From Thermoproteota archaeon (GTDB lineage: Archaea; Korarchaeota; Korarchaeia; B14-G2), in the NCBI GenBank assembly GCA_037917675.1, contig JAVCBW010000005.1, positions 32,001 through 96,000 of the forward strand: DNA of 64,000 nucleotides, written 5' to 3'. Position 1 is the first letter of the stretch. The number at the start of each line of letters is the position of its first letter. Of this stretch, positions 5,775 through 30,156 are shown piece after piece. A program made the translations under genes and the position numbers. The notes below the pieces were generated by a model that saw only the letters and a program-made list of their open reading frames with translations, did no database searches and was not told the DNA's origin.

Positions 5775-5780
5775 CTGAGC

Positions 5781-6658: not shown

Positions 6659-6676
6659 CATACACTAGCTCCCAGA

Positions 6677-7427: not shown

Positions 7428-7478
7428 GGCTAGCCCTAACTCTTATTACCAGGAGGATTTTAACCTGCTGGTGGTAGC

Positions 7479-9722: not shown

Positions 9723-9763
9723 GTGGGAAGTGAGCTGGATCCTGTAGTCGTTGAGTGTAGGGG

Positions 9764-9840
9764 TGGCGCCGAGGCCGGGATTTGAACCCGGGTCGGCGGC
9801 TCGACAGGCCGCTATGCTGACCTGGCTACACCACCTCGGC
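9764..9840 (-). tRNA. tRNA-Asp(GUC), intron-less, CCA encoded
   Basis: Reverse complement GCCGAGG...GCGGC-CTGTCGA-GCCGC...GGTTCAAATCC...CCTCGGC-G-CCA folds into a cloverleaf with anticodon GTC; TATA CTTTAAAG at 9862-9869. Confidence 0.96.
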
Positions 9841-9910
9841 TCAAGTCACATGTATGTTTTGCTTTAAAGATTTTACGCCCTCAAGCATCAGGCTATCGAG
9901 TGGTGTCTGA

Positions 9911-10885: not shown

Positions 10886-10887
10886 CC

Positions 10888-12072
10888 TTGAAAGCTAGAG
10901 CTCTAGTAATCTTTGCACCAAGCTTGATGATGGGAGCTTTGCTGGCAGCTACAGCATTCGAGCCACGTGAGCTAGTGTTTGATGAAGTCCACTATGTTCA
11001 GGCAGCTAGAGAGATCTTGGGGAAAGGCTTCTATGACATGCATACGCATCCTCCACTCGGTAAGGAGCTCATTGCAGCTGGCATGTGGCTTGCTGGAGAT
11101 AAGGCAGTCGGCTGGAGAGTGTTCTCTGTCATGTTCGGTGTGGCTTCAGTAGCTCTGCTCGCGCTGGCAGTCTACCTTGGGACTGGGTCTGTTCTAGCAG
11201 GGTTCATAGCCTCTCTAGGGCTCGCTTTAGACCCACTACACTTCACCCAGAGCAGAGTAGCTATGCTAGACATCTTCCAGACCCCACTGCTGCTAGGCGC
11301 CCTCACAGTAGTATTGAAGAGGAGGAGCTTGCTTGGCTTTTCCCTGGCAGGTGTCCTAGCTGGGCTAGCTGCTGCATGCAAGCTTCCAGCTGCTGTGGTA
11401 GGGCTTTCACTCGGCCTCTACTTCTCGTCTGGAGGGAAGGCATGGAGGATGAGGCTGCTTAAGCTCCTCTGCTACGGGGCTTCAGCTATAGCAGCTTACA
11501 TTCTGACTTATCTACCCTACTTTGCATGTGGCCACGGGCTGGTTGAGTGGCTTAAGGATACCCAGTTGTTCATGCTCTATGTTGGGACAACATTCAAGTT
11601 TGAGCATCCGTATATGTCTCCAGCTTGCACTTGGCTCATAGGGTGGAAGCCTGTCCTCTACTATTACAAGGTAGATCAGGGCAGCAACTATGTCCATGCT
11701 ATCCTGGCTCTCGGCAATGTAGCCAGCTGGCTCCCATCATTTGCAATCCTACTGAAGCAGCTAGCCTATCCGAGAGGAGAAATGGACTTGCTTCCCTCAG
11801 TGTGGTTTGCTCCATGCTATGTCTCACTCATGCTAGTTAGGAGGCCGACCTTCATATTCTACATGGAGCCTCTGATCCCAGCACTCTATATGTCGGTTGG
11901 CGTGGAGGTAGGGTACTTAGCAGGAGAGGAGAGGATTCTAGCTGCTGTCGCTGCTGTGATGCTCTACCTGGCTAGCGCTCTCTTTCTGCTACCACTCTCC
12001 ATGGGGATTCTCGTCCCAGTATCATACCTTAGGGAAATGCTCATAGTTGGGAGAGCGCTATGGGGAGGCTAA
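10888..12072 (+). CDS. Lipid-phosphate-mannose:protein O-mannosyltransferase (PMT/GT39)
   Basis: VFDEVHYV (DE motif), HPPLGK, GWR, SRVAMLD, HPYMSP..W and LGN motifs of the PMT family. Confidence 0.85.
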   Translation: MKARALVIFAPSLMMGALLAATAFEPRELVFDEVHYVQAAREILGKGFYDMHTHPPLGKELIAAGMWLAGDKAVGWRVFSVMFGVASVALLALAVYLGTGSVLAGFIASLGLALDPLHFTQSRVAMLDIFQTPLLLGALTVVLKRRSLLGFSLAGVLAGLAAACKLPAAVVGLSLGLYFSSGGKAWRMRLLKLLCYGASAIAAYILTYLPYFACGHGLVEWLKDTQLFMLYVGTTFKFEHPYMSPACTWLIGWKPVLYYYKVDQGSNYVHAILALGNVASWLPSFAILLKQLAYPRGEMDLLPSVWFAPCYVSLMLVRRPTFIFYMEPLIPALYMSVGVEVGYLAGEERILAAVAAVMLYLASALFLLPLSMGILVPVSYLREMLIVGRALWGG

Positions 12073-12588
12073 GAGCTGAGAGAGCAGGCCTCTCCTCTCC
12101 ATGAGCACTAGGATAGCTGAGCCTAGAGCTACAACAGACAGAAGCTCGCTAGCTAGGAGAGAGATGTATGTCAGAGCATATGGTAAGGAGTAGAGGTATG
12201 CTATGTAGGAGCCTACTATGGCTGTTATAACAAGTGAAGCTATCGCACCTGCAGCTAGAGGAGGCCCCCACCCCATCCTATGCCTCCTCTTCACCATGCT
12301 TCTCAGCACAGTGTAGGCTGCTGCTGATGCTAGAGCATTCGCTAGGCTTCCTCCGATCATGTCGATGGCAGGAAGACCAGAGTAGGCATTCCAGAGGAAG
12401 CAGCCTATTGCTGTCCCTATGGCAGCTGGAGCTAGCCCTACGGTAGCTGGAGCTATGACTAGCAGGGAGTCAGATACTCTTATTGAGACTAGAGACGGGC
12501 CTATGTTGGAGAGTGGCCCTAGCACTAAGCTCAGCACAAAGTACAATGCAGCTATGATAGCAGAGAGGGAAAGCTCTCTTGAGCCCAT
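12058..12588 (-). CDS. QueT-family (ECF S-component-like) transporter
   Basis: Start moved to ATG 12588. AIIAALYFVL, IRVSD, GCFLWN and D...GSLA pattern; about 5 TM. Confidence 0.72.
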   Translation of the reverse strand: MGSRELSLSAIIAALYFVLSLVLGPLSNIGPSLVSIRVSDSLLVIAPATVGLAPAAIGTAIGCFLWNAYSGLPAIDMIGGSLANALASAAAYTVLRSMVKRRHRMGWGPPLAAGAIASLVITAIVGSYIAYLYSLPYALTYISLLASELLSVVALGSAILVLMERRGLLSQLLASP

Positions 12589-15071: not shown

Positions 15072-16427
15072 TTGACTCTTGTTATAATTCGTTATTCTGC
15101 TATCGTTTTTCAAAGCGGTTCCCGAACCCATCTTGGAGGTGTTCCATTAGGCCCTGTATCGACGGGAAGAGCTTCCTGCAGAGCTCCTTCAACTCCAAAG
15201 GCTACACCTCCCCCCTATGTGCTCACTAGAGTTGAATCCCCCGCTGAAGTCGTATTCTATGTGCGTGGAGAAGACGTTGAGAAGGTGGAGCTTAAGCCGC
15301 TGCACTACAGGGGTGTAGAGCGAGCGCTTATAGGCCTCTCAGCTGAAGACGTCCCAGCCTACGTCTCGAGGATCTGTGGGATCTGCCCCATAGCCCACCA
15401 GATAGCATCGTCTCAAGCGATAGAAGCCTCACTTGGCATCGATAGCCCACCTGAGACAGCTTCAATCGTGAGAAAGCTTGCATTGATAGCTGAACATGTC
15501 AAGAGCCATACACTACACCTGTTCCTGCATACGCTACCTGATCTCTTCTCATATGCTTACAACTCGCCTCAGGATGTGTTCACGATATCGAGAGCTGAGA
15601 GAGAGTATCCGAGGAAGATAGGTGCTCTGATAGCATTCAGCAACAGAGCTCTAGCAGAGCTAGGTGGAAGAGGCGTCATCTCCATGGTCTCGACAGTCGG
15701 TGGGGTATATAGTAGGCTTACATCATCCTCAAGAGAGAGGATCGAGAAGGAGCTAAAGCAGGCTAAGGCAGCGATAAGCTGGGCTAAAGACCTGCTGTAC
15801 AGCAGAAGGCTCTTGGATGAGGCCATGGTAGACAGGGAACTCTATGATCTACCTGAGGGAACCATGTTCATCACGACAGCTAGTGGAGGAGAGCTGTGGG
15901 GGGAGGCTAAGATGTATGCTGGGCGGAAACCGAAGCCTATCCTGATAGCAGACCTGCTTGGAGGTAGCTATTACGAGAAAGCTGTTTTAACTGGGCCTGC
16001 TGCCAGACATGTTGCTAGAGGAGGAGAAGTCCATGAAGCCATGAACTTGCTAACTCACATCAGGATAAGGATGGATGAGATCGAGTCATACTTGGATGCT
16101 GCTGAGAGGCTCCTGAATGAGCCTAGGCTATACCATGGCATGCTAAGGGAGAGAGTTAAGGCAGCAGACTCACAGGGAACTTCTGCAGTTGAGGCGCCTA
16201 GAGGAACACTAGTCCACTACTATAGGGTTGAGAGGGGAGCTATAGCTGAAAGCAAGATAGTGACCCCAACCATGTTGAATAGAGGCATCATGATTACGGT
16301 AGCTAACAGGCTGGTGAGGCTGGCAAGTGACCTAGCGTTCCCTAGAGACTACATCATAAGCAAGGCTATGGCTGCTATCAGGCTATTCGACCCCTGTATC
16401 TCATGCCTCTATCATACAATCAAGTAG
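15072..16427 (+). CDS. [NiFe]-hydrogenase large-subunit homolog (group 3-like), orphan
   Basis: L1 RICGICPIAH, SHTLH, EAPRGTLVHYY, IVTPT, L2 DPCISCLYH. True start uncertain: GGAGGTG at 15135-15141 is not followed by a canonical start codon; in-frame GTG at 15219. Confidence 0.85.
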   Translation: MTLVIIRYSAIVFQSGSRTHLGGVPLGPVSTGRASCRAPSTPKATPPPYVLTRVESPAEVVFYVRGEDVEKVELKPLHYRGVERALIGLSAEDVPAYVSRICGICPIAHQIASSQAIEASLGIDSPPETASIVRKLALIAEHVKSHTLHLFLHTLPDLFSYAYNSPQDVFTISRAEREYPRKIGALIAFSNRALAELGGRGVISMVSTVGGVYSRLTSSSRERIEKELKQAKAAISWAKDLLYSRRLLDEAMVDRELYDLPEGTMFITTASGGELWGEAKMYAGRKPKPILIADLLGGSYYEKAVLTGPAARHVARGGEVHEAMNLLTHIRIRMDEIESYLDAAERLLNEPRLYHGMLRERVKAADSQGTSAVEAPRGTLVHYYRVERGAIAESKIVTPTMLNRGIMITVANRLVRLASDLAFPRDYIISKAMAAIRLFDPCISCLYHTIK

Positions 16428-18219: not shown

Positions 18220-19824
18220 TTGCCAGATTTAAGGATCAGAGAGCATCCTATACTCGAATTTGAGCGTGGAAGGGAGGTTACTATCTACTTTGAGGGGAAG
18301 CCGATTAGAGCCTACGAAAGTGAGACGGTGGCTGCAGCCCTCTATGCAAGCGGCATCAAAGTCTTCAGCAGAAGCTTCAAGTATAGGAGGGCAAGAGGCT
18401 TTTTTTGCGCAATAGGAAGATGCTCAGCATGCATGATGGAAGTAGATGGAGTACCTAACGTGAGGACATGTATGGTGCAGGTCAGAGATGGCATGAAGGT
18501 GAGAAGGCAGAAGGGGTGGCCTACTGCAGAGACAGACCTGCTTGCACCAGTCCTAGAGAGAATGGACCTCTCCCCAGCAGCTTACCTCAAGAGGATGGCT
18601 AAGCCAGCAGCTTTCAGGAGAATTTATCTGAGGCTGATGAGGAAGTTCACAGGCATAGGAGAAGCTAGAGCTATAGGAGATGGGAGGAAGGCAAGCAGGC
18701 CTGAGGTCTATGACGTCGAGGTAGCAGTGATTGGGGGAGGGCCTGCAGGGCTGATGGCAGCTATTGAAGCAGGGCAGCTATGTAAGAGTGTGCTGCTCAT
18801 CGATGACAAGCATAAGCTAGGGGGGCAGCTGATAAAGCAGACCCACAAGTTCTTCGGGAACGTCAGCTACTGTGCTGGGCGAAGAGGCTTTAAGCTAGCA
18901 GATGAGATGGCTGAGAAAATCTCAAAGATGAGCAGTGTTAAGGTGCTGACTTCCACCTCAGCGTTTGCATACTATCCTAGAGAAGGGTTCCTTGCTGCTG
19001 TGAGAGATGGAAGCAGGATAGTCAAGGTTAGAGCTAGGAAGTACATAATCTCAACTGGAGCATATGAGAGGACTCTGGTCTTCGAGAACAATGACCTGCC
19101 AGGAGTCTATGGTGCAGGAGGAGTACAGACTCTCATGAACGTCTATGGGATCAAGCCTGGTGAAGCAGGGCTAATGGTAGGCTCAGGGAACGTTGGGCTG
19201 ATAGTGTCATACCAGCTGCTTCAGGCTGGAGTCGATGTAAAGGCCATAGTAGAGGTTCTTCCCAGGATAGGAGGCTACCTAGTGCATGCAGCCAAGGTGA
19301 GGAGGCTAGGTGTCCCGATACTAACTAGGCACACCATAGTTAAGGCACTCGGTAAGACACACGTGGAGGGAGCTGTGATAGCCAGGGTAGATGAGAGCTT
19401 TAATCCGATACCAGGGTCAGAGAGAAAGATAGACTGCGACTTCATCTGCATCTCAGTAGGGCTGACGCCAACCTATGACCTCATCCAACACTTCAAGCCG
19501 AAGATGCTCATGGTCCCAGAGCTAGGAGGCTTTGTCCCTGTTAGGGACGTCTATGGGAGAGTCAGGAGAGACGTCTACATAGCTGGCGACTGCTCTGGGG
19601 TAGAGGAGGCTGCTACAGCCATGCTAGAGGGAGCTATAGCAGGGATACATGCAAGCCTCATGCTCGGGTATGGGGGAGAGGAGGAGAAGAGGAGGATAGA
19701 GGAGTACATGAGGGAGCTTGAGGAGGAGAGGGGGTCACCTTTCAGTGAGAGGATAAAGGCTGGGCTGAGGGAGGTTCTTGTTGAGAGTATCGAGAGGCTT
19801 GAGGAGGGGGGTGAGCTTGGCTGA
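18220..19824 (+). CDS. PDH2-type dye-linked amino-acid dehydrogenase alpha subunit (2Fe-2S + FAD/NADH domain)
   Basis: TTG start after GAGGTG; FCAIGRCSAC...TC 2Fe-2S motif, GGGPAG, GGQLIKQTHKFFG, GSGNVG. Confidence 0.85.
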   Translation: MPDLRIREHPILEFERGREVTIYFEGKPIRAYESETVAAALYASGIKVFSRSFKYRRARGFFCAIGRCSACMMEVDGVPNVRTCMVQVRDGMKVRRQKGWPTAETDLLAPVLERMDLSPAAYLKRMAKPAAFRRIYLRLMRKFTGIGEARAIGDGRKASRPEVYDVEVAVIGGGPAGLMAAIEAGQLCKSVLLIDDKHKLGGQLIKQTHKFFGNVSYCAGRRGFKLADEMAEKISKMSSVKVLTSTSAFAYYPREGFLAAVRDGSRIVKVRARKYIISTGAYERTLVFENNDLPGVYGAGGVQTLMNVYGIKPGEAGLMVGSGNVGLIVSYQLLQAGVDVKAIVEVLPRIGGYLVHAAKVRRLGVPILTRHTIVKALGKTHVEGAVIARVDESFNPIPGSERKIDCDFICISVGLTPTYDLIQHFKPKMLMVPELGGFVPVRDVYGRVRRDVYIAGDCSGVEEAATAMLEGAIAGIHASLMLGYGGEEEKRRIEEYMRELEEERGSPFSERIKAGLREVLVESIERLEEGGELG

Positions 19825-20317
19825 GTACTTGAGTAGGGGATACCTCACTACAGGAGAGCTCAGGGGAATGGGGCTGATACCACCAGATGAGGTTGTTAGG
19901 GAGAAGAGAGTCGCTGTCATAGAGTGTGTCCAGGAGATCCCATGTAACCCTTGCTCAGCTATCTGCAAGGTTGGAGCCATACTGAAGGAGGGGCTGTGTA
20001 AGCCTCCTAGAGTAGACTGGGAGAAGTGTGTTGGCTGTAGGATGTGTGTCGCAATATGCCCAGGGCTAGCAATATTCTGCATCCAGATAAAGGATGGAAA
20101 GGGCTATGTGACCATGCCATATGAGATGCTTCCAAAGCCCAATAAGGGAGACAAGGCTGTTCTACTGAGCAGAGCTGGGGAAGAGCTGGGTGAGGGAGAG
20201 GTTGTGGAGGTCTTCAAGATGATCAAGGGAGACCCTGCTTACGTCATCACAGTAGAGGCTCCGAGGCCTGAGCTCGTCTATGAGGTTAGGGCAGTTAGGA
20301 TAGCTAAAGGTGGTTGA
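19817..20317 (+). CDS. Ferredoxin (gamma, PdhF-like) subunit
   Basis: IECVQEIPCNPC...C and CVGCRMCVAICPG clusters; TTG start after GGTGA. Confidence 0.85.
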   Translation: MAEYLSRGYLTTGELRGMGLIPPDEVVREKRVAVIECVQEIPCNPCSAICKVGAILKEGLCKPPRVDWEKCVGCRMCVAICPGLAIFCIQIKDGKGYVTMPYEMLPKPNKGDKAVLLSRAGEELGEGEVVEVFKMIKGDPAYVITVEAPRPELVYEVRAVRIAKGG

Positions 20318-20318
20318 A

Positions 20319-20597
20319 TTGGGTAGGGGAAAGAAAATAGTGTGCTTCTGCCATGATGTGACCGAAGAGGACATAATAGAAGCCATAGAAATGGGTTACG
20401 ATGACATAGAGAGTATAAAGAGGTTCACTGGAGTGACAACTGGTCCATGTCAGGGAAAGTCCTGCATGATGCATGTCCTGAGGATCCTGAGGAGGATGGG
20501 CAAGCTGAAGGAGGCTAAGACTACAGTCATCAGGCCTCCAATAGACCCAATTCCAATAGAAGCCCTCTTAGGTGATGATGATGAAGAAGAAGGCTGA
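20319..20597 (+). CDS. BFD-like 2Fe-2S (delta, PdhX-like) subunit
   Basis: VCFCHDVT...TGPCQGKSC...RPP. Confidence 0.85.
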   Translation: MGRGKKIVCFCHDVTEEDIIEAIEMGYDDIESIKRFTGVTTGPCQGKSCMMHVLRILRRMGKLKEAKTTVIRPPIDPIPIEALLGDDDEEEG

Positions 20598-21672
20598 CAT
20601 AGCAGTCATAGGGTGTGGAGCTCTTGGAGCAGGCATCGCATATAACATAGCTAGACTAGGCTGGAAGCCGCTGGTCTTTGAGGCCAGGTACTTCGGGTAT
20701 GGGTCAACAGGGAGAGACGTAGGTGTCATCAGGGGGAGGCATAAGGACCCTGATGTAGCTAAGCTGGCCTCAGAAGGCCTTAAGCTTCACGAAAAGCTGC
20801 CAGAGGAGCTTGAGTCTAATACCTTGTTTAGGCAGGACGGCGTGCTTACAGTGGCGCTTACAGATGAGGAAGCTGAGGCATTGAGGCGAGAGTTCAGCTC
20901 CTATGTGACAGGGGGGTTCAGGGAGCTCAGCAGAGAGGAGGCTGCGAGCAGATATCCATATATCAGGCTAGATGACGTGAAGCTCTGCTATCTTAGCCCG
21001 AGAGAAGGGTTGGTTCACCCGCTAGCCGTCCTCTGGGGGTACCTGGATGCACTCAGAAAGCTAGGTGGTGAGGTTGTTAAGCCAGCTGAGGTGACTAGCA
21101 TAGAAGTTGAGGGGAGACAGCTAGCTGTAAAGACTACAGCAGGCGAGTATAAGGCAGGCAAGGTCGTGGTGGCAGCAGGCTTCGAGAGCAGAGAGCTTCT
21201 TAGCAGGCTTAGAGTCGAAATCCCATTGGATCCTCTTGCTAAGGAAGCTCTGGTAACAGAGCCTATGAGGCCCTTCCTGGATCCTGTCGTTGAGAGGCCA
21301 AGTACAGGGCTTATGGTAGCTCAGACGATGAGAGGAGAGGTCATCGGGACAGTAGGATCCCTAGGGAAGACAAGCGACCTCAGCTTGTCGAGCTATAGGT
21401 TCCTCAGAGACTTCGCTAAGCAGGCTACCCAGCTTATCCCAGCTCTCAGAAGCCTAAAGGTGCTTAGGCAGTGGACTTGCATCTTAGACATGACACCAGA
21501 TGGGAAGCCGGTTATTGGTGAGACTAGCGTCAGTGGAGTATATGTTGCATGTGGTATGCATGACTATGGCCTCAGCTTGGTGCCTATAGTCAGTAAGCTA
21601 CTAGCTAAGCTTGTGGTGGAGGGAGTTGAAGACCCCCTGCTGAAGCCATTTTCACCAGAGAGGTTTAGGTGA
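20581..21672 (+). CDS. DAO-family FAD oxidoreductase (beta subunit, divergent)
   Basis: GCGALG FAD motif, GSTGR, TPDGKP, FSPERF terminus. Confidence 0.82.
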   Translation: MKKKADIAVIGCGALGAGIAYNIARLGWKPLVFEARYFGYGSTGRDVGVIRGRHKDPDVAKLASEGLKLHEKLPEELESNTLFRQDGVLTVALTDEEAEALRREFSSYVTGGFRELSREEAASRYPYIRLDDVKLCYLSPREGLVHPLAVLWGYLDALRKLGGEVVKPAEVTSIEVEGRQLAVKTTAGEYKAGKVVVAAGFESRELLSRLRVEIPLDPLAKEALVTEPMRPFLDPVVERPSTGLMVAQTMRGEVIGTVGSLGKTSDLSLSSYRFLRDFAKQATQLIPALRSLKVLRQWTCILDMTPDGKPVIGETSVSGVYVACGMHDYGLSLVPIVSKLLAKLVVEGVEDPLLKPFSPERFR

Positions 21673-21676
21673 GAGC

Positions 21677-23008
21677 ATGGAGGTTGTTGTCGTTGGAGGA
21701 GGTGTAGCTGGCGCTTCAGCTGCTGAGGCAGCTAGAGTAGCTGGAGCAGAGGTCACGCTGGTCAGCGTAGAGGAGCATGTAGGATACTCTAGGTGTGGGC
21801 TACCATACCTCATTGGAGGAAAGGTGAGGAGCCCGAGTGACCTGAGAGTATACCCTGAAAGCGACTTAGGGAGGATAGGAGTAAGGGTTGTTAAGGGGAG
21901 AGCTATCGACATCAGTAGAGATGGAAAGCTTAGGGTAGAGCTGAATTCAGGCGGCTCTACTGAATTCAGCTACGACTCTCTTGTCCTAGCTACTGGGGCA
22001 CGTGCTACTATTCCACCCATCAAGGGAGCTGATCTACCTGGAGTCTATACGCTTAGAACGATAGATGATGCTCTGGAGATAATGAGAGCTGTGAAGCAGA
22101 GCAAGAATGCAGTCATAGTGGGGGCAGGGTTCATAGGCTTAGAGCTAGCTGAAAACTTCACTGAACTAGGGTTGAAGACCACTGTAGTTGAGATGCTGCC
22201 TCACGTGCTTCCAGCTGTCCTAGACCATGATATGGCTAAGATGCTTCAGAGGCACCTCAGGGACCATGGAGTAGAGCTGTATGTCAGCAAGAGAGTAGAG
22301 GAGATAGCTGGAGAGAGCAGGGCTAGAGAGGTTGCGATACAGGAGGTTGGAGTTGTGGAAGCAGACTTGGTCATATTAGCTACTGGAGTAAGAGCTGAGA
22401 CAGAGCTCGCTAAGGCTGCTGGAGCTGAAATAGGGCCTACTGGAGGCATCAAGACAGACTGGAGGCTTCAGACAACTCAGCCAGAGGTATATGCGTGTGG
22501 TGACTGCGCTGAGGTCAGGAACCTGATCACTGGGCAGCCTACTCTCATCCAGCTAGGGACTGCAGCAGTGAAGCAGGGGAGGATTGCTGGAGAGAACGCT
22601 GCAGGCGGCAAGAGAGCCTACTTCGGTGGGCTTGCCTCAGCAGTCACCAAGCTCTTTGAGATGCAGATTGGTTCAACAGGCCTCACAGTCTGGCAGGCTG
22701 AGAGGGCTGGGCTCCCAGTTGAGAGCGTTAGGGTCGTAGGAAGGAGTAGGCCACACTACTATCCTGGTGCAGAGAGGATCTACGTGAAGCTTATAGCTGA
22801 AACAGAGCAAGATAGGATTGTTGGAGCTCAGATCATGGCTCCGCTAGAGGTGGCACCTAGGATAAACCTTGTCGCTACAGCCATCCAGGCTAGGCTCACA
22901 GTCAGTGAGCTAGCTGCAATGGACTCATGTTATGCGCCACCAGTCTCAGAGTATGTTGAGCCTATTGCTAGAGCAGCCCAGGAGCTACAGAAGAGGCTAA
23001 AGAAATAA
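21677..23008 (+). CDS. CoA-disulfide reductase / NADH oxidase-family flavoprotein
   Basis: GGGVAG, single redox Cys YSRCGLPY, GAGFIGLE, GDC, CYAPP. Confidence 0.85.
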   Translation: MEVVVVGGGVAGASAAEAARVAGAEVTLVSVEEHVGYSRCGLPYLIGGKVRSPSDLRVYPESDLGRIGVRVVKGRAIDISRDGKLRVELNSGGSTEFSYDSLVLATGARATIPPIKGADLPGVYTLRTIDDALEIMRAVKQSKNAVIVGAGFIGLELAENFTELGLKTTVVEMLPHVLPAVLDHDMAKMLQRHLRDHGVELYVSKRVEEIAGESRAREVAIQEVGVVEADLVILATGVRAETELAKAAGAEIGPTGGIKTDWRLQTTQPEVYACGDCAEVRNLITGQPTLIQLGTAAVKQGRIAGENAAGGKRAYFGGLASAVTKLFEMQIGSTGLTVWQAERAGLPVESVRVVGRSRPHYYPGAERIYVKLIAETEQDRIVGAQIMAPLEVAPRINLVATAIQARLTVSELAAMDSCYAPPVSEYVEPIARAAQELQKRLKK

Positions 23009-23033
23009 GAGCTGGTATCAGGTGGGGTAAGCC

Positions 23034-23444
23034 TTGGCTGAGAAGATTAAGGTAAAGGAGTATGAGATCGTAGTAGGGCTACTGTACTCAAAGGATCATG
23101 TGTGGGCTAAGAGAGAAGACAGCACAGTGAGGATAGGGGTCACAGACTATGCTCAGAAGGAGCTGAAGGAGGTCACTGGAGTAGAGCTACTAGTAGAGAA
23201 GGGAGAGGAGGTTGAGAAGGGAGACTCCATCGCCACACTAGAGTCTGTTAAGGCTGTAGCAGACGTCTTCACTCCAGTGACAGGGAGGGTAGTTGAGGTG
23301 AACACAAAGCTAGAGGAAGAACCTACCCTCATAAACGATGATCCATATGGTGAAGGCTGGATAGCAGTCATCGAGATCTCAGATCCATCTGAGCTAGATG
23401 AGCTGATGAAGGCAGAAGAGTACGCTAAGGAGGTCAGCAAGTAG
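23034..23444 (+). CDS. gcvH: Glycine cleavage H-protein (lipoyl carrier)
   Basis: YSKDHVW, GVTDYAQ, LESVKA (lipoyl-Lys), INDDPYGEGW. Confidence 0.93.
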   Translation: MAEKIKVKEYEIVVGLLYSKDHVWAKREDSTVRIGVTDYAQKELKEVTGVELLVEKGEEVEKGDSIATLESVKAVADVFTPVTGRVVEVNTKLEEEPTLINDDPYGEGWIAVIEISDPSELDELMKAEEYAKEVSK

Positions 23445-24417
23445 CTAGTAGCCACTCCACCTGCCGATATATCTCACATTCATCTCTTTTTGCAAGCTTC
23501 AAGCTCGGGTAGTTGTATATTGGGCCAAGAGGGCTCTCGTTATAGAACGGCCTATTACAGCCTAAGCATCCTGATGTGAGGAAGGGCTTTAGAGTACGGG
23601 CCTCGGCTTCAGCTATATGAGACCACTCTCCTAGCCCGATGAGAGAGCCTGTACTACTGAACTTGAAGTCTGATGGCCTTGCACCATACTCCTGGATGAG
23701 ATATAGCGCCAGCTGAAGCCCTCTATACCTCCTTACACTAGGGCTTCTTGCAGCATGCATTCTGGTACCTGGGAGGGGAGTTAGAGCAAAGAGGGCTATC
23801 TGAGCTCCGACTGACTTGAGATCTGTAGCAGTCTTGAGGAGCTCCAGGTCGCTTTCACCTAGCCCAGCTATCAGGTGGCATGAGACACGTCCTCTACCAA
23901 GCACACTGAGAGCCTTGTAGATGGTCCTCCAGATTCCACTCCATGTCAAGCCTCTCTTCACCTCTGCGAAGACACGAGGAGAAGCTGCATCGAGCCCTAT
24001 GCCTACTCTCTCAGCTCCAGCTTCCTTGAGCTGCTGGAGTGTCCTCCCTGATGTCGCTGTGACTGCTACTGAGATAGGCTTGCCAGCATCCCTTAAGGCT
24101 AGCAGCAGACTCGCTAGCCTCCTCGTATATCCTGGGTGAGGGACTGTCTGGACACAGACCCTGAGCAAGCTGCTCTCTCGAATCGAGCGTATGACATCAG
24201 TTAGAGGATAGCTTGGCCAGACTACCCTAGATAACATGTCTGGTCTAGATGAGCTGCTTCTAGCCTGAGCACAGAACACACAGTCATAGATGCATCTTCC
24301 CTTAGAGAACATGAGGTAAGCTGTAGTGGGAGAGGCAAGCGAATGTACTCTAGCTAGCCTGATAGCTCCAGCTGTCCCTACTGAGACCCTAACTTCAGCA
24401 AGCTCCTCACGTGAAAT
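23434..24417 (-). CDS. lipS2: Archaeal lipoyl synthase subunit LipS2 (radical SAM)
   Basis: CxxxCxxC (CIYDCVFC), AQARSS, LSRVVWP, TSGCLGCNRP (LipS2 motif TxGCPxCNRP with P to L). The family-type N-terminus RVSVGTA...PTTAYLM lies upstream of ATG 24312, so a start at ATT 24417 is proposed. Confidence 0.8.
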   Translation of the reverse strand: MSREELAEVRVSVGTAGAIRLARVHSLASPTTAYLMFSKGRCIYDCVFCAQARSSSSRPDMLSRVVWPSYPLTDVIRSIRESSLLRVCVQTVPHPGYTRRLASLLLALRDAGKPISVAVTATSGRTLQQLKEAGAERVGIGLDAASPRVFAEVKRGLTWSGIWRTIYKALSVLGRGRVSCHLIAGLGESDLELLKTATDLKSVGAQIALFALTPLPGTRMHAARSPSVRRYRGLQLALYLIQEYGARPSDFKFSSTGSLIGLGEWSHIAEAEARTLKPFLTSGCLGCNRPFYNESPLGPIYNYPSLKLAKRDECEIYRQVEWLLATC

Positions 24418-25805: not shown

Positions 25806-27269
25806 TTGAGCTATAGCAAGGTGACTTCAGAGGTTATTGAGGAGCTAAAGAGCATAGTTGGGCCTGAGTACGTGTCTGACAAGCCAGCAGTCTTAGCAGC
25901 CTACCTGTCGAGGAGCATAATGGGCATTGAGGCTGTTAGGCCAGATGTCGTCGTTAGGCCGAAGTACGTGGAGGAAGTCAGGAAGGTACTGATGCTAGCT
26001 AACGAAAATAGGATCCCTGTCACGCCGATGGCAGGAGGCCTATCAGGAGGCTTCGCATTACCTCTCATCAAGCCAGCAGGTATACTCTTAGACCTCTCTA
26101 GGATGGATAGGATCCTGAAGGTAGACCCTGATGCAAGGTATATGGTGGTTGAGCCAGGGGTTAGGAACGGGCCTCTATGGGCGTACTTCAGGAAGAACTA
26201 TCCGGAGTATGCCCCTCCGATACCGGATGGCGCCCCTCCTGCAGCAACGGTTGTAGGAGACGCTCTGGAGAGGGGGTTCACGATAGTCACGAGTAAAGCT
26301 GGGCCTGCAGCAGACCTAGTGCTTGGGCTGGAGGTAGTCCTGCCTACTGGTGAGGTCATCAGGACAGGCTCTTGGGCTCTGCCAGGAGCTAAGCCCTTCT
26401 ACAAGTGGGGGCTTGGGCCAGACTTCACTGGGGTCTTCCTGGGGGCTCAGGGGACGATGGGTGTCGTCACAAAGCTTGCAGTCAAGATATTCCCTCACTC
26501 AGAGCACAAGGATATACTGGCTTTCGGCTTTGAGAACCCACATGACATGGTGAAGGCTACCATGAGAGTCTTGAAGCAGGAGGTTGGTGTCATGGTGCAG
26601 GGTGGCAACTGGTGGCTTGTGCCAACTAGGCTAGCTGAGGAAAACCCGAGGCTAGCAGATTACCAGTACTGGGCTAAACTTGGGGTTCCATTGTGGTTCA
26701 TGAACTTCGAGCTATGGGGGAGAGATGAGGAGGATCTAGAGTATCAGAGGAGGGTTGTGAGACGAGAGATGGAGAAGGCTGCTCAGGCAGGCATCAGGGT
26801 CAGGGAGTGGAAGCTCCACCCGAGGCAGAAGAAGAGTAGGCTGAAGAAGCCGAACAAAATAGCTATACCATATGCAAAGTGGAGGGGAGCATTCCTCTTT
26901 ATAACATGGTACACACCCTGGATGGAGGCTGGAGAGTTCGCTGAAATATGTGTCAAGAAGCTAGAGGAATACAGGTTCCCACCAGTCCTCTGGATTGCTT
27001 CCATAGAGCATGGGAGGGAAGCAATATGCATGCCTATAGTATGCTATGACCCTACAAGCTCAGAGGAGATGGAGAGGCTTAGAGAGTTCAATAGAGACAC
27101 AACAGAGATATTCGTTGAGAAAGGCTGGATAAACTACAGGCCAGACCCATATGTCCATGCACCAGCGATGTACTCTAGGGCAGCAGCCTACTATAGTATG
27201 CTAAAGAAGCTCAAGAAGGTTTTTGACCCCAATGGCATAATGCATCCAGGCAGGCTATGCCTGCCATAG
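25806..27269 (+). CDS. FAD-linked oxidase (GlcD/PCMH-VAO family)
   Basis: PDVVVRP, LDLSRMDRI, VEPGV, GLEVVLPTGEVIRTG, GAQGTMGVVT, FDPNGIMHPG. Confidence 0.85.
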   Translation: MSYSKVTSEVIEELKSIVGPEYVSDKPAVLAAYLSRSIMGIEAVRPDVVVRPKYVEEVRKVLMLANENRIPVTPMAGGLSGGFALPLIKPAGILLDLSRMDRILKVDPDARYMVVEPGVRNGPLWAYFRKNYPEYAPPIPDGAPPAATVVGDALERGFTIVTSKAGPAADLVLGLEVVLPTGEVIRTGSWALPGAKPFYKWGLGPDFTGVFLGAQGTMGVVTKLAVKIFPHSEHKDILAFGFENPHDMVKATMRVLKQEVGVMVQGGNWWLVPTRLAEENPRLADYQYWAKLGVPLWFMNFELWGRDEEDLEYQRRVVRREMEKAAQAGIRVREWKLHPRQKKSRLKKPNKIAIPYAKWRGAFLFITWYTPWMEAGEFAEICVKKLEEYRFPPVLWIASIEHGREAICMPIVCYDPTSSEEMERLREFNRDTTEIFVEKGWINYRPDPYVHAPAMYSRAAAYYSMLKKLKKVFDPNGIMHPGRLCLP

Positions 27270-27280
27270 GAGGTGAGAGC

Positions 27281-28513
27281 ATGGAGATTGAGAGCTATAA
27301 GAGGGAGATTTACAAGTGTATCCACTGCAAGACATGTAGGTTTGCCTACTCAGATGAACCTGACAGGATAGGTTATGGAAGCTATACTGGGATAGTTTAT
27401 GGGTGCTTAGCTGGAACCTATAACCTAGACTGGGAGGCATACTACAACTCTGGTAAAATGTGGATACTGAGAGGGATACTGGAAGGAGATGTCCCGATTA
27501 CAGAAGACCTGATAGATGTATTCTACATGTGTACTGAGTGTGGTAACTGCCAGCTCCAGTGTGAAAATGAGATACCGACAGTAGAGATATTCGAGACATT
27601 CAGAGCAGATCTGGTCAGATCTGGGATAGAAATTCATCCAAAGCATGAGAGGTTCACAGAGTTCGCAGTAAAGCTGAACAACCCATATGGGGAGCCTCAT
27701 GAGCAGAGGACAGAGTGGTTTGACGGCGAGAAGGATAGGAGGAGTGAGCTAGCATACTTCGTCGGGTGCACATCATCCTATAGGCTGCCGCATGTAGCTA
27801 AGGCTGTAGCAAGGCTTCTGAAGACAGCTGGGCTAGAGTTCCTGGTGTCAACAAGGGAAGTCTGCTGCGGCTCACCTCTACTGAGAGTTGGGCAGAGAGA
27901 TGTAGCGCTCAGCTTAGCTAAAAGGAACATAGAGAACTTCAAGGCAGCTGGAGTGAAGAAGATGCTGTTCTCATGTGCAGGATGCTATAGGACTTTCACA
28001 GTAGACTACCCGAAGCTCCTAGGTGACCAGCCGTTTGAGACTGTGAGTGTCATGGAGATGATAAAAGAGCTGATAGACAAGGGTGTGATAAAGCCTACAA
28101 AGAGCATAGATATGACTGTGACATGGCATGATCCATGCCACTTTGGTAGACACATCTACCTCTGGAAGAAGGGATCTGGAGCAAGCAAGGGAGAGCTCAG
28201 AGAATTTGCAAAGAAGTGGTTTGACATACCTAGGGAAGTACTGCATAGCATACCAGGACTCAAGGTCGTTGAGATGTATAGGAACAGGGAGAACTCTTGG
28301 TGCTGTGGAGCTGGAGGAGGAGTCAAGGCAGCTTACCCTGATATGGCTCTCTGGGCAGCCTATGAGAGGCTAAAAGAGGCTAAGGAGGCTGGAGCTGAGG
28401 CTGTAGTGACATCGTGCCCATTCTGTCTCAGGAACCTATCTGATGCAGCAAGGGAGTTCAAGAGTGATGTGAAGGTAATAGACCTAACTGAGCTAGTACT
28501 CCAGGCACTCTAA
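27281..28513 (+). CDS. Fe-S oxidoreductase, GlcF/HdrD type (two CCG domains)
   Basis: CIHCKTC, CTECGNC...C, CCGSP, HDPCH, CCGAGGG, CPFC; ATG 27281 after GGTGA. Confidence 0.87.
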   Translation: MEIESYKREIYKCIHCKTCRFAYSDEPDRIGYGSYTGIVYGCLAGTYNLDWEAYYNSGKMWILRGILEGDVPITEDLIDVFYMCTECGNCQLQCENEIPTVEIFETFRADLVRSGIEIHPKHERFTEFAVKLNNPYGEPHEQRTEWFDGEKDRRSELAYFVGCTSSYRLPHVAKAVARLLKTAGLEFLVSTREVCCGSPLLRVGQRDVALSLAKRNIENFKAAGVKKMLFSCAGCYRTFTVDYPKLLGDQPFETVSVMEMIKELIDKGVIKPTKSIDMTVTWHDPCHFGRHIYLWKKGSGASKGELREFAKKWFDIPREVLHSIPGLKVVEMYRNRENSWCCGAGGGVKAAYPDMALWAAYERLKEAKEAGAEAVVTSCPFCLRNLSDAAREFKSDVKVIDLTELVLQAL

Positions 28514-28542
28514 CCTACTCCACCATTGGATGTTGATGCAGC

Positions 28543-29376
28543 GTGACTGAGCTCGCCATAAAGCGTATAGAGCCTGTTGAGCTCTGGTTTATGAGGGAAG
28601 CTGCCTCAGTCACCTATACTGCTCTAGTGAAGCTAGGGTTCAGTAGAGCTGTTGAGCTCAGGCTATATAGGAGCTGGAGCAGGATGAGCAGAGAGCTCGC
28701 TGCTGAGCTCGCTGAAGTAGCATCTAGGCTTGGAGTAGAAGCCTCAGCAATCCAAGCCCCCTTCTCATCCTGTTCATTCCACCATGGCTGGCTTGACAAG
28801 CCTTGTATCTCGATAGCTCAGGATGCATATGAGGCTAAAAGGAGGGCTGTAGCTAGAGGAGAGCTGGAGCATGAAGTTGGGCACTCTGCTCTCCATGGCA
28901 GGCTCGAGTACTACCTGATCAGAGTACCGAAACCGCTGCTTAAGCTAGCAGATTTCATTGGAGAAGATGAGCTCCGTGAGCTGATACACATACTTGCCTC
29001 TGCTGTAAAGGATTATGAGGTCTCTGAGCTGCTTGCATCACGTGAGATCATAGGAAACCAGGTTGAGATGCTGCTGGAGCACCTTCCGGTATCTAGTGTT
29101 GAAGTGGATGCTGTAGCTAGAGGAGACCTTGTTGCGCTCGCAAATTTGGCTAAGCCGTTCTTCTGTGCTGCTCCGATAGCTGGGAAGTCTGGTGTCCTCA
29201 GGGAGGCTATGAGGAGAGAGGCAGCTAAGCTGCCTAGGTATGCTGAGGAAGCTGTTTACATGGCCATCTCCAGAGTTGCTGCAGCAGGCAGCTTCCATGA
29301 GAGGCTTAGGGAAGCCTCAGAGGTGCTGCTCAACACAGCTGCTAGAGATAACGATTTAAGCCTGGATGTAAGCTAG
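28543..29376 (+). CDS. Hypothetical protein with HExxH metal-binding motif
   Basis: LEHEVGHSALHG plus downstream KDYEV. Confidence 0.6.
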   Translation: MTELAIKRIEPVELWFMREAASVTYTALVKLGFSRAVELRLYRSWSRMSRELAAELAEVASRLGVEASAIQAPFSSCSFHHGWLDKPCISIAQDAYEAKRRAVARGELEHEVGHSALHGRLEYYLIRVPKPLLKLADFIGEDELRELIHILASAVKDYEVSELLASREIIGNQVEMLLEHLPVSSVEVDAVARGDLVALANLAKPFFCAAPIAGKSGVLREAMRREAAKLPRYAEEAVYMAISRVAAAGSFHERLREASEVLLNTAARDNDLSLDVS

Positions 29377-29379
29377 TAC

Positions 29380-30156
29380 ATGATGAGCTGCAAGCTGTCT
29401 TCCCTAGCTTTAGTGGTGCTGCTAGCAGCAGCCTTGCTGGCAGCAGCCTACTACTGGAGGAAATGCAGAGCTCTTGAAGCTGGGCAGGCGCCTCTGAGGC
29501 CTAAGAGCTCTGAAGCTGAGGTCAGCTTCACGCCCACAGCTGTTGGAGAAGCTATTAAGCTGCCTCCACCCATCACTAGAGGAAATGTCAGCGTCGAGGA
29601 GGCTATCTCACGGAGGAGATCCGTCAGAAGCTATGCTGACAAGCCTCTTAGCCTGCTTCATGTGTCTCAGCTCCTGTGGGCAGCTCAGGGGATAACTGAT
29701 CCAGCTAGAGGGCTGAGGGCAGCGCCATCTGCTGGAGCTACATACCCGCTGGAGGTCTATGTTGTCGTGGGTGCTGGTGGGGTCATAGGGCTAGAGGCAG
29801 GCGTCTACAGGTACTATCCGGAGTCTCATGAGATAAAGCTGGTTAAGCTTGGAGATTTGAGGAAGATGCTTGCTGAAGCCTGCCTTGGACAGAGTTGGGT
29901 ACGTGAGGCACCAGTCAGCATAGTGATCACAGCAGTATACGAGAGGACGACATCAAGATATGGTGAGAGAGGGGAAAGATATGTACATATGGAGGCTGGG
30001 CATGTGGGAGAGAACATATACCTCGAGTGTGTGAGCCTTGGGCTAGGCTGCGTGGTTGTAGGGGCATTCTATGACCATGATGTAGCCCGCATACTCGCGA
30101 TTCCAGCAGGAGAGAGCCCGCTATATGTGATACCAGTAGGCTTCCCGAGAGCATAG
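29380..30156 (+). CDS. SagB/ThcOx-family nitroreductase with N-terminal membrane anchor
   Basis: RRRSVRSY, LLWAAQG, APSAGATYP, MEAGHVGEN. Confidence 0.87.
   Translation: MMSCKLSSLALVVLLAAALLAAAYYWRKCRALEAGQAPLRPKSSEAEVSFTPTAVGEAIKLPPPITRGNVSVEEAISRRRSVRSYADKPLSLLHVSQLLWAAQGITDPARGLRAAPSAGATYPLEVYVVVGAGGVIGLEAGVYRYYPESHEIKLVKLGDLRKMLAEACLGQSWVREAPVSIVITAVYERTTSRYGERGERYVHMEAGHVGENIYLECVSLGLGCVVVGAFYDHDVARILAIPAGESPLYVIPVGFPRA

What the first reader, a model, noticed from the sequence alone, without database searches (positions are those of the whole stretch)
18220..24417. PDH2-like dehydrogenase operon extended by a CoADR/Nox flavoprotein and a lipoyl H-protein, facing lipS2: candidate new lipoate-linked amino-acid oxidation system
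Seen: six tightly coupled + strand genes (alpha, ferredoxin, BFD 2Fe-2S, DAO-type beta, single-Cys disulfide reductase, GcvH), overlapped at the 3' end by lipS2. No GcvP, GcvT or classical dihydrolipoamide dehydrogenase is in the window. Known: alpha-gamma-delta-beta is the gene order of Thermococcales PDH2 L-proline dehydrogenase, and LipS1/LipS2 insert sulfur into octanoyl-H-protein. Inference: the reductase may replace the L-protein, and the H-protein may carry electrons or C1/sulfur units for the flavoprotein complex (e.g. glycine or sarcosine oxidation, or reverse glycine cleavage).
Basis: partly seen in the sequence, partly recalled or inferred. Interest (0 to 1): 0.72.

Follow-up and report, generated by a model that had tools for sequence, protein, structure and literature searches.

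The report
Flavoprotein operon joined to reductase–GcvH pair
In one genus of uncultured archaea, a four-gene amino-acid dehydrogenase operon has gained a CoA-disulfide-reductase-like flavoprotein and a lipoyl H-protein, which may stand in for the glycine-cleavage enzyme that this genome lacks.

Summary
Six tightly coupled + strand genes (alpha, ferredoxin, BFD-type delta, DAO-type beta, a CoADR/Nox-type reductase, GcvH) end 11 bp inside a convergent lipS2.

The reading as one new lipoate-linked amino-acid oxidation system is not supported by conservation:
- The six-gene order occurs only in the window's own genus.
- Homologous alpha-gamma-delta-beta blocks in four other class relatives stand alone among housekeeping genes.
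- GcvH beside lipS genes is common in archaea.

Part of the inference survives:
- The genome (92.7% complete) has gcvPA/PB, gcvT and a second, gcvP-syntenic GcvH elsewhere, but no Lpd. The best hit to the Lpd model is this reductase.
- Reductase and GcvH both look foreign to the phylum. The reductase groups with a Bathyarchaeia-type family and the GcvH with ordinary Thermoprotei-type GcvH.
- Only one other of 55 archaeal GcvH loci has a CoADR-type reductase nearby. There it sits with an AhpD-like protein in a genome without GcvP.

Best reading: a composite operon in which the reductase and GcvH form an NAD(P)(H)-lipoyl redox couple, probably an L-protein surrogate. This is unproven. No binding prediction or RNA evidence could be obtained.

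The parts
18220..19824 (+). alpha subunit: N-terminal [2Fe-2S] Fer2_4 domain (Cys motif C-x4-C-x2-C-x11-C) plus an FAD/NAD(P)-binding Pyr_redox_2 domain. It is collinear with the N-terminal half of SoxA. It is about 50 residues longer than the alpha proteins of class relatives.
   Evidence: TIGR01372 257 bits, model positions 13-488; best solved chain 1Y56_A, PH1363; Cys motif; 45-49% identity to alpha of four other genera.
19778..20317 (+). gamma subunit: small ferredoxin-like protein with a CxxCxxCxxxCP motif. The start is uncertain; an ATG at codon 31 of the ORF is also possible.
   Evidence: relatives align from residue 21-46.
20310..20597 (+). delta subunit: SO_alpha_A3 / BFD-like [2Fe-2S] domain. 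It corresponds to SoxA model positions 512-599.
20572..21672 (+). beta subunit: DAO-family FAD amine dehydrogenase of the SoxB / L-proline dehydrogenase beta family. It is a divergent subtype and its substrate is unknown.
   Evidence: soxB 181.4 bits, cut-off 529; 1Y56_B 148.6 bits; 31-33% identity to beta of four class relatives, which are 57-73% alike.
21677..23008 (+). CoADR/Nox-type (group 3) pyridine-nucleotide disulfide oxidoreductase with redox Cys40. It is the only member of this family in the genome and the genome's best match to the Lpd model.
   Evidence: TIGR03385 347.4 bits, cut-off 578.8; 6PFZ 304.9 bits.
23034..23444 (+). GcvH, a lipoyl carrier with the canonical ESVKA lipoyl-lysine motif and no Cys. 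It is the more canonical of the genome's two H-proteins.
23434..24312 (-). LipS2 radical-SAM lipoyl synthase subunit (CxxxCxxC present). It is convergent with gcvH and overlaps it by 11 nt. LipS1 lies elsewhere, at C53:87687-88655.

Best explanation
The locus is a composite operon made of two modules.

Module 1 (alpha-gamma-delta-beta) is a self-sufficient iron-sulfur flavoprotein amine/amino-acid dehydrogenase of the archaeal L-proline dehydrogenase / SoxAB / HcnABC kind. Beta oxidises the substrate. Electrons then pass through the delta, gamma and alpha Fe-S clusters to the alpha flavin and on to NAD(P)+ or another acceptor.

Module 2 (reductase plus GcvH) was added in this genus between beta and a pre-existing neighbouring lipS gene. 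In module 2 the CoADR-type flavoprotein exchanges electrons between NAD(P)(H) and the lipoyl group of the adjacent GcvH. It would use Cys40, possibly helped by the family-specific Cys418 of the partner subunit. This does the job of the missing L-protein, most likely for the glycine cleavage system, whose P and T genes lie elsewhere. LipS2, with LipS1 and LplA encoded elsewhere, lipoylates GcvH.

Co-transcription with module 1 would then reflect shared use in amino-acid catabolism and NAD(P)(H) balance, not a single physical machine.

Shown: gene content, coupling, phyletic pattern, absence of Lpd. Inferred: every catalytic step.
For: - Tight coupling of beta, reductase and gcvH.
- The four-gene block exists on its own in four other genera among housekeeping genes, and as pdhA-F-X-B in Thermococcus (PMC4364671 passage).
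- In G008 the block is convergent with lipS2-lipS1 and has no reductase or gcvH. A beta/lipS junction therefore also exists without the pair.
- The genome has gcvPA/PB, gcvT, LplA-like, LipS1 and LipS2 but no Lpd. The top Lpd-model hit is the window reductase.
- Lpd passes its cut-off in only 1 of 43 genomes of the phylum, whereas GcvP is found in 41 of 43 and GcvT in 40 of 43.
- In G059 (another phylum, 95% complete) a full LplA-LipS1-LipS2-gcvH-gcvPA-gcvPB cluster again goes with no Lpd, and the orthologue of this reductase (43-44% identity) is the best Lpd-model hit.
- Where archaea do have Lpd, it sits by the gcv genes in 3 of 55 loci, the position the reductase takes here.
- One independent GcvH + CoADR-type reductase + LplAB cluster exists, in G058.
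- The L-protein of Thermococcus kodakarensis is still unassigned (section text of PMC11032457).
Against: - The adjacency occurs in one genus only.
- None of 25 strong homologues in other archaeal phyla is near a GcvH.
- The closest orthologue seen in context (G059) follows gap-pgk, and another (G132) sits by rubrerythrin and a flavodiiron protein. Both fit a general NAD(P)H oxidase or disulfide reductase.
- The gcvP-syntenic H-protein is the other paralogue.
- The one independent GcvH-reductase cluster (G058) lies in a genome with no GcvP found, and includes an AhpD-like protein. That points to a non-GCS role.
- No GcvH-reductase fusion was found among 20 longer GcvH-containing proteins.
- The reductase lacks the CxxxxC disulfide of Lpd.
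- Other L-surrogate candidates exist: GlcD/CCG pairs beside gcvT.
- The window's beta is a divergent subtype, so a lineage-specific tie to the pair cannot be excluded.
Confidence: 0.4

Rival explanations
1. There is no direct reductase-GcvH chemistry. The reductase is the organism's general CoADR / NAD(P)H oxidase / persulfide-polysulfide reductase, placed behind an NAD(P)H-linked dehydrogenase to recycle the nucleotide. GcvH is an extra H-protein that simply sits beside its lipoyl synthase.
For: - It is the only CoADR/Nox-family gene in the genome.
- Its best family matches are CoADR models, and its best solved relatives are NoxA-3, NADH oxidase and P. horikoshii CoADR.
- The G059 orthologue overlaps pgk by 4 nt after gap. 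The G132 homologue is next to rubrerythrin and a flavodiiron protein.
- GcvH lies within 6 kb of lipS genes in 8 of 55 archaeal loci without any reductase.
Against: - The genome lacks any other candidate with the Lpd fold.
- The 25-nt reductase-gcvH spacing with its own SD-like site is kept in the same-genus contigs.
- The reductase scores below the CoADR equivalog cut-offs (347 against 578.8 bits).
- It belongs to a separate family with an extra conserved Cys.
Confidence: 0.22
2. The pair is a GCS-independent NAD(P)H -> reductase -> lipoyl-GcvH thiol relay. It would work like the Lpd-lipoyl protein-AhpD-AhpC peroxidase of mycobacteria (recalled), here serving redox protection or a thiol/disulfide acceptor.
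For: - G058 has GcvH - AhpD-family protein - CoADR-type reductase - LplA - LplB on one strand, in a 96%-complete genome where no GcvP and no Lpd were found.
- The window organism already has a gcvP-syntenic H-protein.
Against: - No AhpD/CMD or peroxiredoxin gene was seen among the window's annotated ORFs.
- The G058 H-protein is of the 'KW' type (EAIKW), a different H clade from the window's canonical ESVKA protein.
- The G058 reductase is only 32% identical.
Confidence: 0.15
3. One reading: all six proteins form one new lipoate-linked amino-acid oxidation system. Lipoyl-GcvH would be the electron or C1 carrier of the flavoprotein complex and the reductase its L-like component.
For: - All six genes are translationally coupled.
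- The window's beta is a lineage-specific subtype. It is 31-33% identical to the beta of four class relatives, which are 57-73% alike. Its alpha is also the outlier and carries an extra C-terminal tail.
- Alpha plus delta equal the N-terminal half of SoxA but lack its GcvT-like folate domain.
Against: - The arrangement is confined to one genus.
- Homologous blocks work without the pair.
- Reductase and GcvH each have their nearest relatives in different outside lineages, so they did not come as a known unit.
- No other locus among the 55 GcvH loci or the 25 reductase loci joins a DAO/Pyr_redox block to either gene.
Confidence: 0.12

Closest known systems
alpha-beta-gamma-delta dye-linked L-proline dehydrogenase of Thermococcus profundus / T. 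litoralis (pdhA-pdhF-pdhX-pdhB), and the PDH1 complex of Pyrococcus horikoshii (PDB 1Y56)
   Same: The gene order is the same: alpha, ferredoxin-like gamma, small delta, DAO-type beta (PMC4364671 passage). The best solved relatives of alpha and beta are 1Y56_A and 1Y56_B.
   Different: - Similarity is modest: beta 148.6 bits, and alpha matched over residues 165-342 only.
- No sequence of a characterised alpha-beta-gamma-delta enzyme was available for comparison.
- Alpha carries a Fer2_4 [2Fe-2S] domain and a C-terminal tail.
- The substrate is unknown.
- The operon continues into a reductase and GcvH.
Heterotetrameric sarcosine oxidase SoxABDG (with HcnABC, opine oxidase and D-hydroxyproline dehydrogenase relatives, which are recalled)
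   Same: Alpha aligns to SoxA model positions 13-488, delta to positions 512-599, and beta to SoxB.
   Different: - All scores are far below the subfamily cut-offs (257 against 1164; 181 against 529).
- There is no GcvT-like folate domain and there are no SoxD/SoxG homologues.
- A ferredoxin subunit is present.
Glycine cleavage H-protein / L-protein (GcvH + dihydrolipoyl dehydrogenase)
   Same: A lipoyl H-protein that passes the GcvH equivalog cut-off sits next to an FAD/NAD(P)H disulfide-oxidoreductase-superfamily enzyme. In three archaeal loci Lpd occupies such a place beside the gcv genes.
   Different: - The reductase has a single N-terminal redox Cys, not CxxxxC.
- It scores 154.6 bits on TIGR01350, against a cut-off of 408.8.
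- P and T are unlinked, and another H paralogue is syntenic with gcvP.
CoA-disulfide reductase / NADH oxidase / persulfide reductase family (PDB 6PFZ, 6RUZ, 4FX9, 3KD9, 3NTD, 8A56)
   Same: It has the same fold and redox Cys, with full-length alignment to these chains. It keeps Tyr361 and Tyr419, which I recall as the CoADR active-site tyrosines.
   Different: - It scores below the CoADR equivalog cut-offs.
- It forms a separate clade with Bathyarchaeia/Nezhaarchaeales proteins.
- Cys418 is conserved beside Tyr419 where 6PFZ and 6RUZ have Ala.
- It sits next to GcvH.
LipS1/LipS2 lipoyl synthase of Thermococcus kodakarensis
   Same: LipS2 and LipS1 both pass their NCBIfam equivalog cut-offs. 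LipS genes next to gcvH are common in archaea.
   Different: Here lipS2 and lipS1 are unlinked. PMC10332631 (passage) says the two are usually syntenic.

Membership tests
alpha-beta-gamma-delta L-proline dehydrogenase (Thermococcus type) | Four genes in the order alpha, gamma (ferredoxin-like), delta (small), beta | tested here: met
   the known order is taken from the PMC4364671 passage.
alpha-beta-gamma-delta L-proline dehydrogenase (Thermococcus type) | Beta is a DAO-family flavoprotein and alpha an FAD/NAD(P)-binding protein related to PH1364/PH1363 | tested here: met
   1Y56_B 3e-42; 1Y56_A 2.7e-37, partial.
alpha-beta-gamma-delta L-proline dehydrogenase (Thermococcus type) | L-proline as substrate | not testable with these tools
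   Beta is only 31-33% identical even to the beta of class relatives. No curated model is passed.
Sarcosine oxidase SoxA/SoxB subfamilies (TIGR01372/TIGR01373) | Score over the curated cut-off, and a GcvT-like C-terminal half in alpha | tested here: not met
   257.4 against 1164 bits and 181.4 against 529.45 bits. No GCV_T domain in alpha or delta.
GcvH (TIGR00527) | Score over the equivalog cut-off and a lipoyl-lysine motif | tested here: met
   (124.9 against 115.85 bits); ESVKA motif.
GcvH as the H-protein of the glycine cleavage system | Genomic linkage with gcvP/gcvT | tested here: not met
   The window copy is unlinked. The other paralogue lies 8.4 kb from gcvPA, and its clade is syntenic with gcvP across the phylum.
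LbpA (sHdr lipoate-binding protein) | [quoted passage not shown] | tested here: not met
   The window GcvH has no Cys.
Dihydrolipoyl dehydrogenase (L-protein, TIGR01350) | Score over the cut-off and a CxxxxC redox disulfide | tested here: not met
   (154.6 against 408.8 bits, matching model positions 103-455 only). The only N-terminal Cys is C40.
CoA-disulfide reductase (TIGR03385 / PRK09564) | Score over the equivalog cut-off | tested here: not met
   347.4 against 578.8 bits; 335.1 against 458 bits.
CoADR/Nox/Npx group-3 flavoprotein disulfide reductases | Single redox Cys in an SxxC motif near residue 40, FAD and NAD(P)H Rossmann folds, and a dimerisation domain | tested here: met
CoADR/Nox/Npx group-3 flavoprotein disulfide reductases | Physiological substrate (CoA disulfide, O2, persulfide or lipoyl protein) | not testable with these tools
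The complex prediction could not be run (see Tried and rejected).
LipS2 (NF053743) | Score over the equivalog cut-off and a radical-SAM CxxxCxxC motif | tested here: met
   (278.2 against 270 bits); CIYDCVFC.

The most novel reading that the evidence does not exclude
The six genes encode one machine. A lineage-specific amine dehydrogenase, with its divergent beta, would hand electrons or an aminomethyl unit to lipoyl-GcvH. A CoADR-type flavoprotein would act as a new kind of L-protein using a Cys40/Cys418' pair. This would be a lipoate-linked amino-acid oxidation, or reverse glycine-forming, system without P/T-type partners.
Probability: 0.12. Interest if true: 0.8.

Novelty: new variant of a known kind. 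Interest (0 to 1): 0.45.

Why it matters
Many anaerobic archaea have P-, T- and H-proteins and lipoylation enzymes but no recognisable dihydrolipoyl dehydrogenase. For Thermococcus kodakarensis the L-protein is still unassigned (PMC11032457).

This locus, together with G059, names a concrete and testable candidate: a Bathyarchaeia-type CoADR-like flavoprotein with an extra conserved cysteine.

If it turns over lipoyl-GcvH, a gap in archaeal one-carbon metabolism closes and group-3 disulfide reductases gain a new substrate class. If it does not, the locus is an ordinary juxtaposition of a proline-dehydrogenase-like operon, a housekeeping NAD(P)H oxidase/CoADR and a lipoylation target.

Tried and rejected
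- **Complex prediction.** No result exists either way.
- **RNA evidence.** No RNA holder was listed, so co-transcription could not be checked and no reads were laid.
- **Close-relative scans.** Scans with the reductase over genome contigs (8 loci) and metagenome contigs (10 loci) returned only same-genus contigs with the six-gene order. The other loci (23-38% identity) had no GcvH beside the reductase. The one exception is a GcvH 4 kb away in a Solobacterium MAG, next to a 26%-identical enzyme.
- **A grouping I dropped.** I first grouped the window GcvH with the copies that sit next to CCG/DsrK-like proteins, because they are its most similar relatives in the phylum (44-51% identity). The tree put those in a separate 'ESGKW' clade.
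- **Fusion search.** The search for GcvH-reductase fusions found 20 longer proteins, none with Pyr_redox. This is weak evidence.
- **Composition.** GC and GC3 of the reductase and gcvH do not stand out from their neighbours.
- **RNA families.** The Rfam scan of the window found only a tRNA.
- **Literature.** A search with 'glycine cleavage', 'lpd', 'missing', 'archaea' and 'NADH oxidase' returned 0 papers. Searches returned no paper naming a CoADR/Nox enzyme as an archaeal L-protein. Jin et al. 2020 (PMC7657641) is not held. Supplementary files, such as the SI of PMC11032457 that may list L-protein candidates, could not be seen.

Full report
**What is there**

The window is G000:C1:32001-96000, part of a 1.78-Mb archaeal MAG in 62 contigs, 92.7% complete.

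The only named close relative is a same-genus record titled 'Thermoproteota archaeon isolate B14_G2'. The genome library places it in a small phylum of 43 species genomes. I take this phylum to be Korarchaeota from recall only; no tool named it.

Between 18220 and 24312 lie seven genes.
- **alpha, 18220-19824:** Fer2_4 [2Fe-2S] plus Pyr_redox_2.
- **gamma, 19778-20317:** ferredoxin.
- **delta, 20310-20597:** SO_alpha_A3 / BFD [2Fe-2S].
- **beta, 20572-21672:** DAO family.
- **reductase, 21677-23008:** CoADR/Nox type.
- **GcvH, 23034-23444.**
- **LipS2, 23434-24312:** on the minus strand.

The junctions are tight:
- alpha/gamma and delta/beta overlap.
- Four bases separate the beta stop from the reductase ATG, with GGTGA across the stop.
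- Twenty-five bases with GGTGGGG precede the gcvH TTG.
- gcvH and lipS2 overlap tail to tail by 11 bases.

AGGTG lies 5 nt upstream, and relatives align from residue 3-5.

**The flavoprotein block**

Alpha and delta together are collinear with the N-terminal half of SoxA (model positions 13-488 and 512-599), and beta with SoxB. All score far below the curated cut-offs.

The best solved relatives are the two chains of the Pyrococcus horikoshii L-proline dehydrogenase PDH1, 1Y56_B (148.6 bits) and 1Y56_A.

The order alpha-gamma-delta-beta is that of pdhA-pdhF-pdhX-pdhB of Thermococcus (passage of PMC4364671).

Homologous four-gene blocks exist in four other genera of the class (G023, G024, G008, G018):
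- None has a reductase or GcvH within the 20 kb fetched.
- Their neighbours are housekeeping genes: AdoMet synthetase, a class II tRNA synthetase, TldD/PmbA, adenylate kinase, CBS proteins and MoaA.
- In G008 the block is convergent with lipS2-lipS1, so a beta/lipS junction exists without the inserted pair.
- G023 shares xpf, rhomboid and AdoMet synthetase neighbours with the window.

One caveat applies. The window's block is the outlier. Its beta is 31-33% identical to those four beta proteins, which are 57-73% alike. Its alpha is 45-49% identical against 58-69% among the others, and carries about 50 extra C-terminal residues. The same-genus genome G001 has a further delta-beta pair on another contig.

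**Conservation of the six-gene order**

The order was found only in the same genus: G001 contig C140, the same contig again as L047 from the metagenome collection, and one further metagenome contig, L048, which also carries dcd and xpf.

Scans with the reductase over one genome per species (8 loci) and over JGI metagenomes (10 loci) gave nothing else with the arrangement.

A wider search reached 158 archaeal genomes outside the phylum:
- 28 of 201 genomes hold a strong reductase homologue (E <= 1e-90).
- 81 of 201 hold a GcvH.
- For the 25 strong homologues outside the phylum, the GcvH is absent, on another contig, or at least 56 kb away.

**The rest of the glycine cleavage and lipoate machinery**

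Elsewhere the genome has:
- gcvPA/gcvPB on C60 and a second GcvH 8.4 kb from them;
- gcvT on C58;
- an LplA-like ligase on C23;
- LipS1 on C53 (257.6 bits against a cut-off of 230).

No Lpd was found. The best TIGR01350 hit in the genome is the window reductase (149.1 bits, cut-off 408.8). That reductase is also the genome's only CoADR/Nox-family gene at E <= 1e-40.

Across the phylum, GcvP is found in 41 of 43 genomes and GcvT in 40 of 43. Lpd passes its cut-off in 1 of 43, and 10 genomes of one genus have an Lpd-like protein scoring 312-335 bits.

**Which H-protein is which**

A tree of 34 H-proteins of the phylum gives four groups:
- a clade of 19 (support 98/95) that includes the genome's C60 copy and the sole H-protein of most genera. 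Its members lie next to gcvPA or 5-9 kb from it;
- a trio from the other class(es), two of them immediately upstream of gcvPA;
- a clade of 10 (support 100/97) with an ESGKW motif;
- the window protein with its G001 orthologue, on a branch of their own.

The window protein has the canonical ESVKA motif and no cysteine. It is 55-63% identical to ordinary GcvH of Thermoprotei, Desulfurococcales, Aeropyrum and Coprothermobacter, but only 39% identical to its own paralogue. In a 64-row tree it is sister (SH-aLRT 91) to the Thermoprotei/Desulfurococcales group.

The window GcvH is therefore a canonical-type H-protein, but it is not the phylum's gcvP-syntenic one.

**The reductase**

Its best solved relatives are NoxA-3 (6PFZ, 304.9 bits), an NADH oxidase (6RUZ) and P. 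horikoshii CoADR (4FX9, 3KD9). It scores below the CoADR equivalog cut-offs.

Its nearest database relatives are one unnamed protein at 56% identity, then a large family at 44-50% identity. Members of that family are labelled Bathyarchaeia or Nezhaarchaeales 'FAD-dependent oxidoreductase' or 'NADH oxidase'. Homologues within its own phylum are 30-40% identical.

In a 35-row tree it is sister (SH-aLRT 93) to the Bathyarchaeia-type family. It stands apart from the other homologues of the phylum, which group with bacterial ones.

Conserved residues in the family:
- invariant: Y37, S38, C40, P43, Y361, Y419 and C277;
- C418, beside Y419, in 32 of 36 sequences, with a Cys at 417 in 3 more. 6PFZ and 6RUZ have Ala at that position.

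From recall, Tyr361' and Tyr419' line the active site of S. aureus CoADR across the dimer interface. A Cys40/Cys418' pair is therefore conceivable, but I could not measure it.

**What sits next to GcvH in other archaea**

- Canonical gcvT/H/PA/PB clusters are common.
- Lpd lies beside them in 3 loci (G086, G091, and G133 at the locus edge).
- lipS1 and/or lipS2 lie within 6 kb in 8 loci.
- A CoADR-type reductase is nearby in exactly 1 locus, G058.

In G058 one strand carries an unknown 528-residue protein, GcvH (EAIKW), an AhpD-family protein, the reductase (FSPCLLPYY; 32% identical to the window's), LplA and LplB. No GcvP and no Lpd were found in that 96%-complete genome.

G059 (95% complete) has LplA-LipS1-LipS2-gcvH-gcvPA-gcvPB and no Lpd. 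Its best Lpd-model hit is the orthologue of the window reductase (43-44% identity). There it overlaps pgk by 4 nt, downstream of gap. The G132 homologue lies beside rubrerythrin and a flavodiiron protein.

**Reading**

The evidence favours a composite operon. One part is an autonomous proline-dehydrogenase-like flavoprotein block. The other is a reductase-GcvH pair added in one genus next to a lipoyl synthase gene.

For the pair, three facts make an NAD(P)(H)-lipoyl-GcvH couple the most economical reading, most likely standing in for the L-protein (confidence 0.40):
- the tight spacing;
- the lack of any Lpd;
- the repeat of 'GCS present, Lpd absent, this reductase family present' in G059.

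The same data also leave room for other readings:
- a general NAD(P)H oxidase/CoADR with no action on GcvH (0.22);
- a GCS-independent lipoyl relay of the G058 kind (0.15);

No binding prediction or expression data could be obtained. Every catalytic step is inference.

**Novelty and score**

Each part belongs to a known family. The arrangement, and the candidate role of a CoADR-type enzyme as a lipoyl-protein oxidoreductase in an Lpd-less archaeon, make this a new variant of a known kind.

My literature searches found no paper assigning such an enzyme as an archaeal L-protein. [quoted passage not shown]

Interest is 0.45. The locus gives a testable lead on a real gap, but it rests on one genus and on circumstantial evidence.

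Noticed in passing
L035 (G040) 7787-10346; L058 (G042) 3307-5754; L037/L038/L036 (G032, G020, G024); L059 (G041) 3594-4281; L120 (G191) 224-5091: A separate clade of GcvH-like proteins has an ESGKW-type lipoyl motif. It sits beside DsrK/HmcF-like CCG iron-sulfur proteins that have an HmcE/TmcC- or NarI-like membrane partner, and often beside LplA and TusA. In G191 the row reads DsrE-DsrE-DsrH-TusA-NarI-CCG-GcvH-LplA. No GcvP was found in G191, or in G110, whose GcvH copy lies about 1 kb from a NarI-CCG-like hit. The proteins checked, those of the window's phylum, lack the two-Cys hallmark of LbpA. This looks like a lipoyl-protein/DsrMK-like sulfur or thiol module. I did not find it described, but I ran no dedicated literature search.
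   Followed up: partly
L117 (G058:C2) 3303-8035, minus strand: The cluster reads unknown 528-residue protein - GcvH (EAIKW) - AhpD-family protein - CoADR-type reductase - LplA - LplB. It lies in a 96%-complete genome where no GcvP or Lpd was found. It resembles the mycobacterial Lpd/lipoyl-protein/AhpD relay, which I cite from recall.
   Followed up: partly
L016 (G000:C58) 2446-6157; L082, L083, L086, L087: gcvT is divergently adjacent to a GlcD-like flavoprotein (TIGR00387 348 bits, cut-off 568) plus a Fer4_8/CCG protein. This holds in the window's genome and in 4 of 6 other genomes of the phylum that I examined. In G024 the pair is 4.4 kb away, and in G040 it is absent. The pair could feed glycolate/glyoxylate to glycine, or it could be another L-surrogate candidate.
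   Followed up: partly
window 25806-30156 (+): About 2.4 kb downstream of gcvH lie four genes in a row: a GlcD-like FAD_binding_4 protein, a TfrB/HdrD-like CCG protein (219 bits, cut-off 385), a 277-residue protein with no family, and a SagB-type nitroreductase-family protein. The genome holds several CCG paralogues.
   Followed up: no
window 21677-23008, residues 277 and 418: The Bathyarchaeia-type reductase family keeps Cys277 in 36 of 36 sequences and Cys418 in 32 of 36, next to the invariant Tyr419. The two closest solved relatives have Ala at the Cys418 position. A second redox cysteine across the dimer interface is possible but was not measured.
   Followed up: partly
L045 (G008:C4) 7164-12140: The alpha-gamma-delta-beta block is convergent with lipS2-lipS1. 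LipS1 scores 211.8 bits, just under its cut-off of 230. This is the same junction as in the window, without reductase or gcvH.
   Followed up: partly
L145 (G059:C27) 3744-7298: The closest reductase orthologue seen in context (43-44% identity) overlaps pgk by 4 nt, downstream of gap.
   Followed up: no
L092, L094, L095 (family f11 genomes): In 3 of the 8 f11 loci, a roughly 480-residue protein with a Cys-rich N-terminus and an FAD/NAD(P) Rossmann region lies within about 1 kb of gcvH, on the opposite strand. From recall it looks like a glutamate-synthase small subunit (GltD/SudA type). A fourth locus, L096, has it about 4 kb away.
   Followed up: no
window 653-4939 (-), 9767-9840 (-), 15072-16427 (+), 49151-53087 (+): Other content of the window: an oligopeptide-type ABC transporter, one tRNA, a [NiFe]-hydrogenase large-subunit-like gene, a two-subunit fumarase and a 2-oxoacid:ferredoxin oxidoreductase. 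These fit a peptide-fermenting anaerobe.
   Followed up: no
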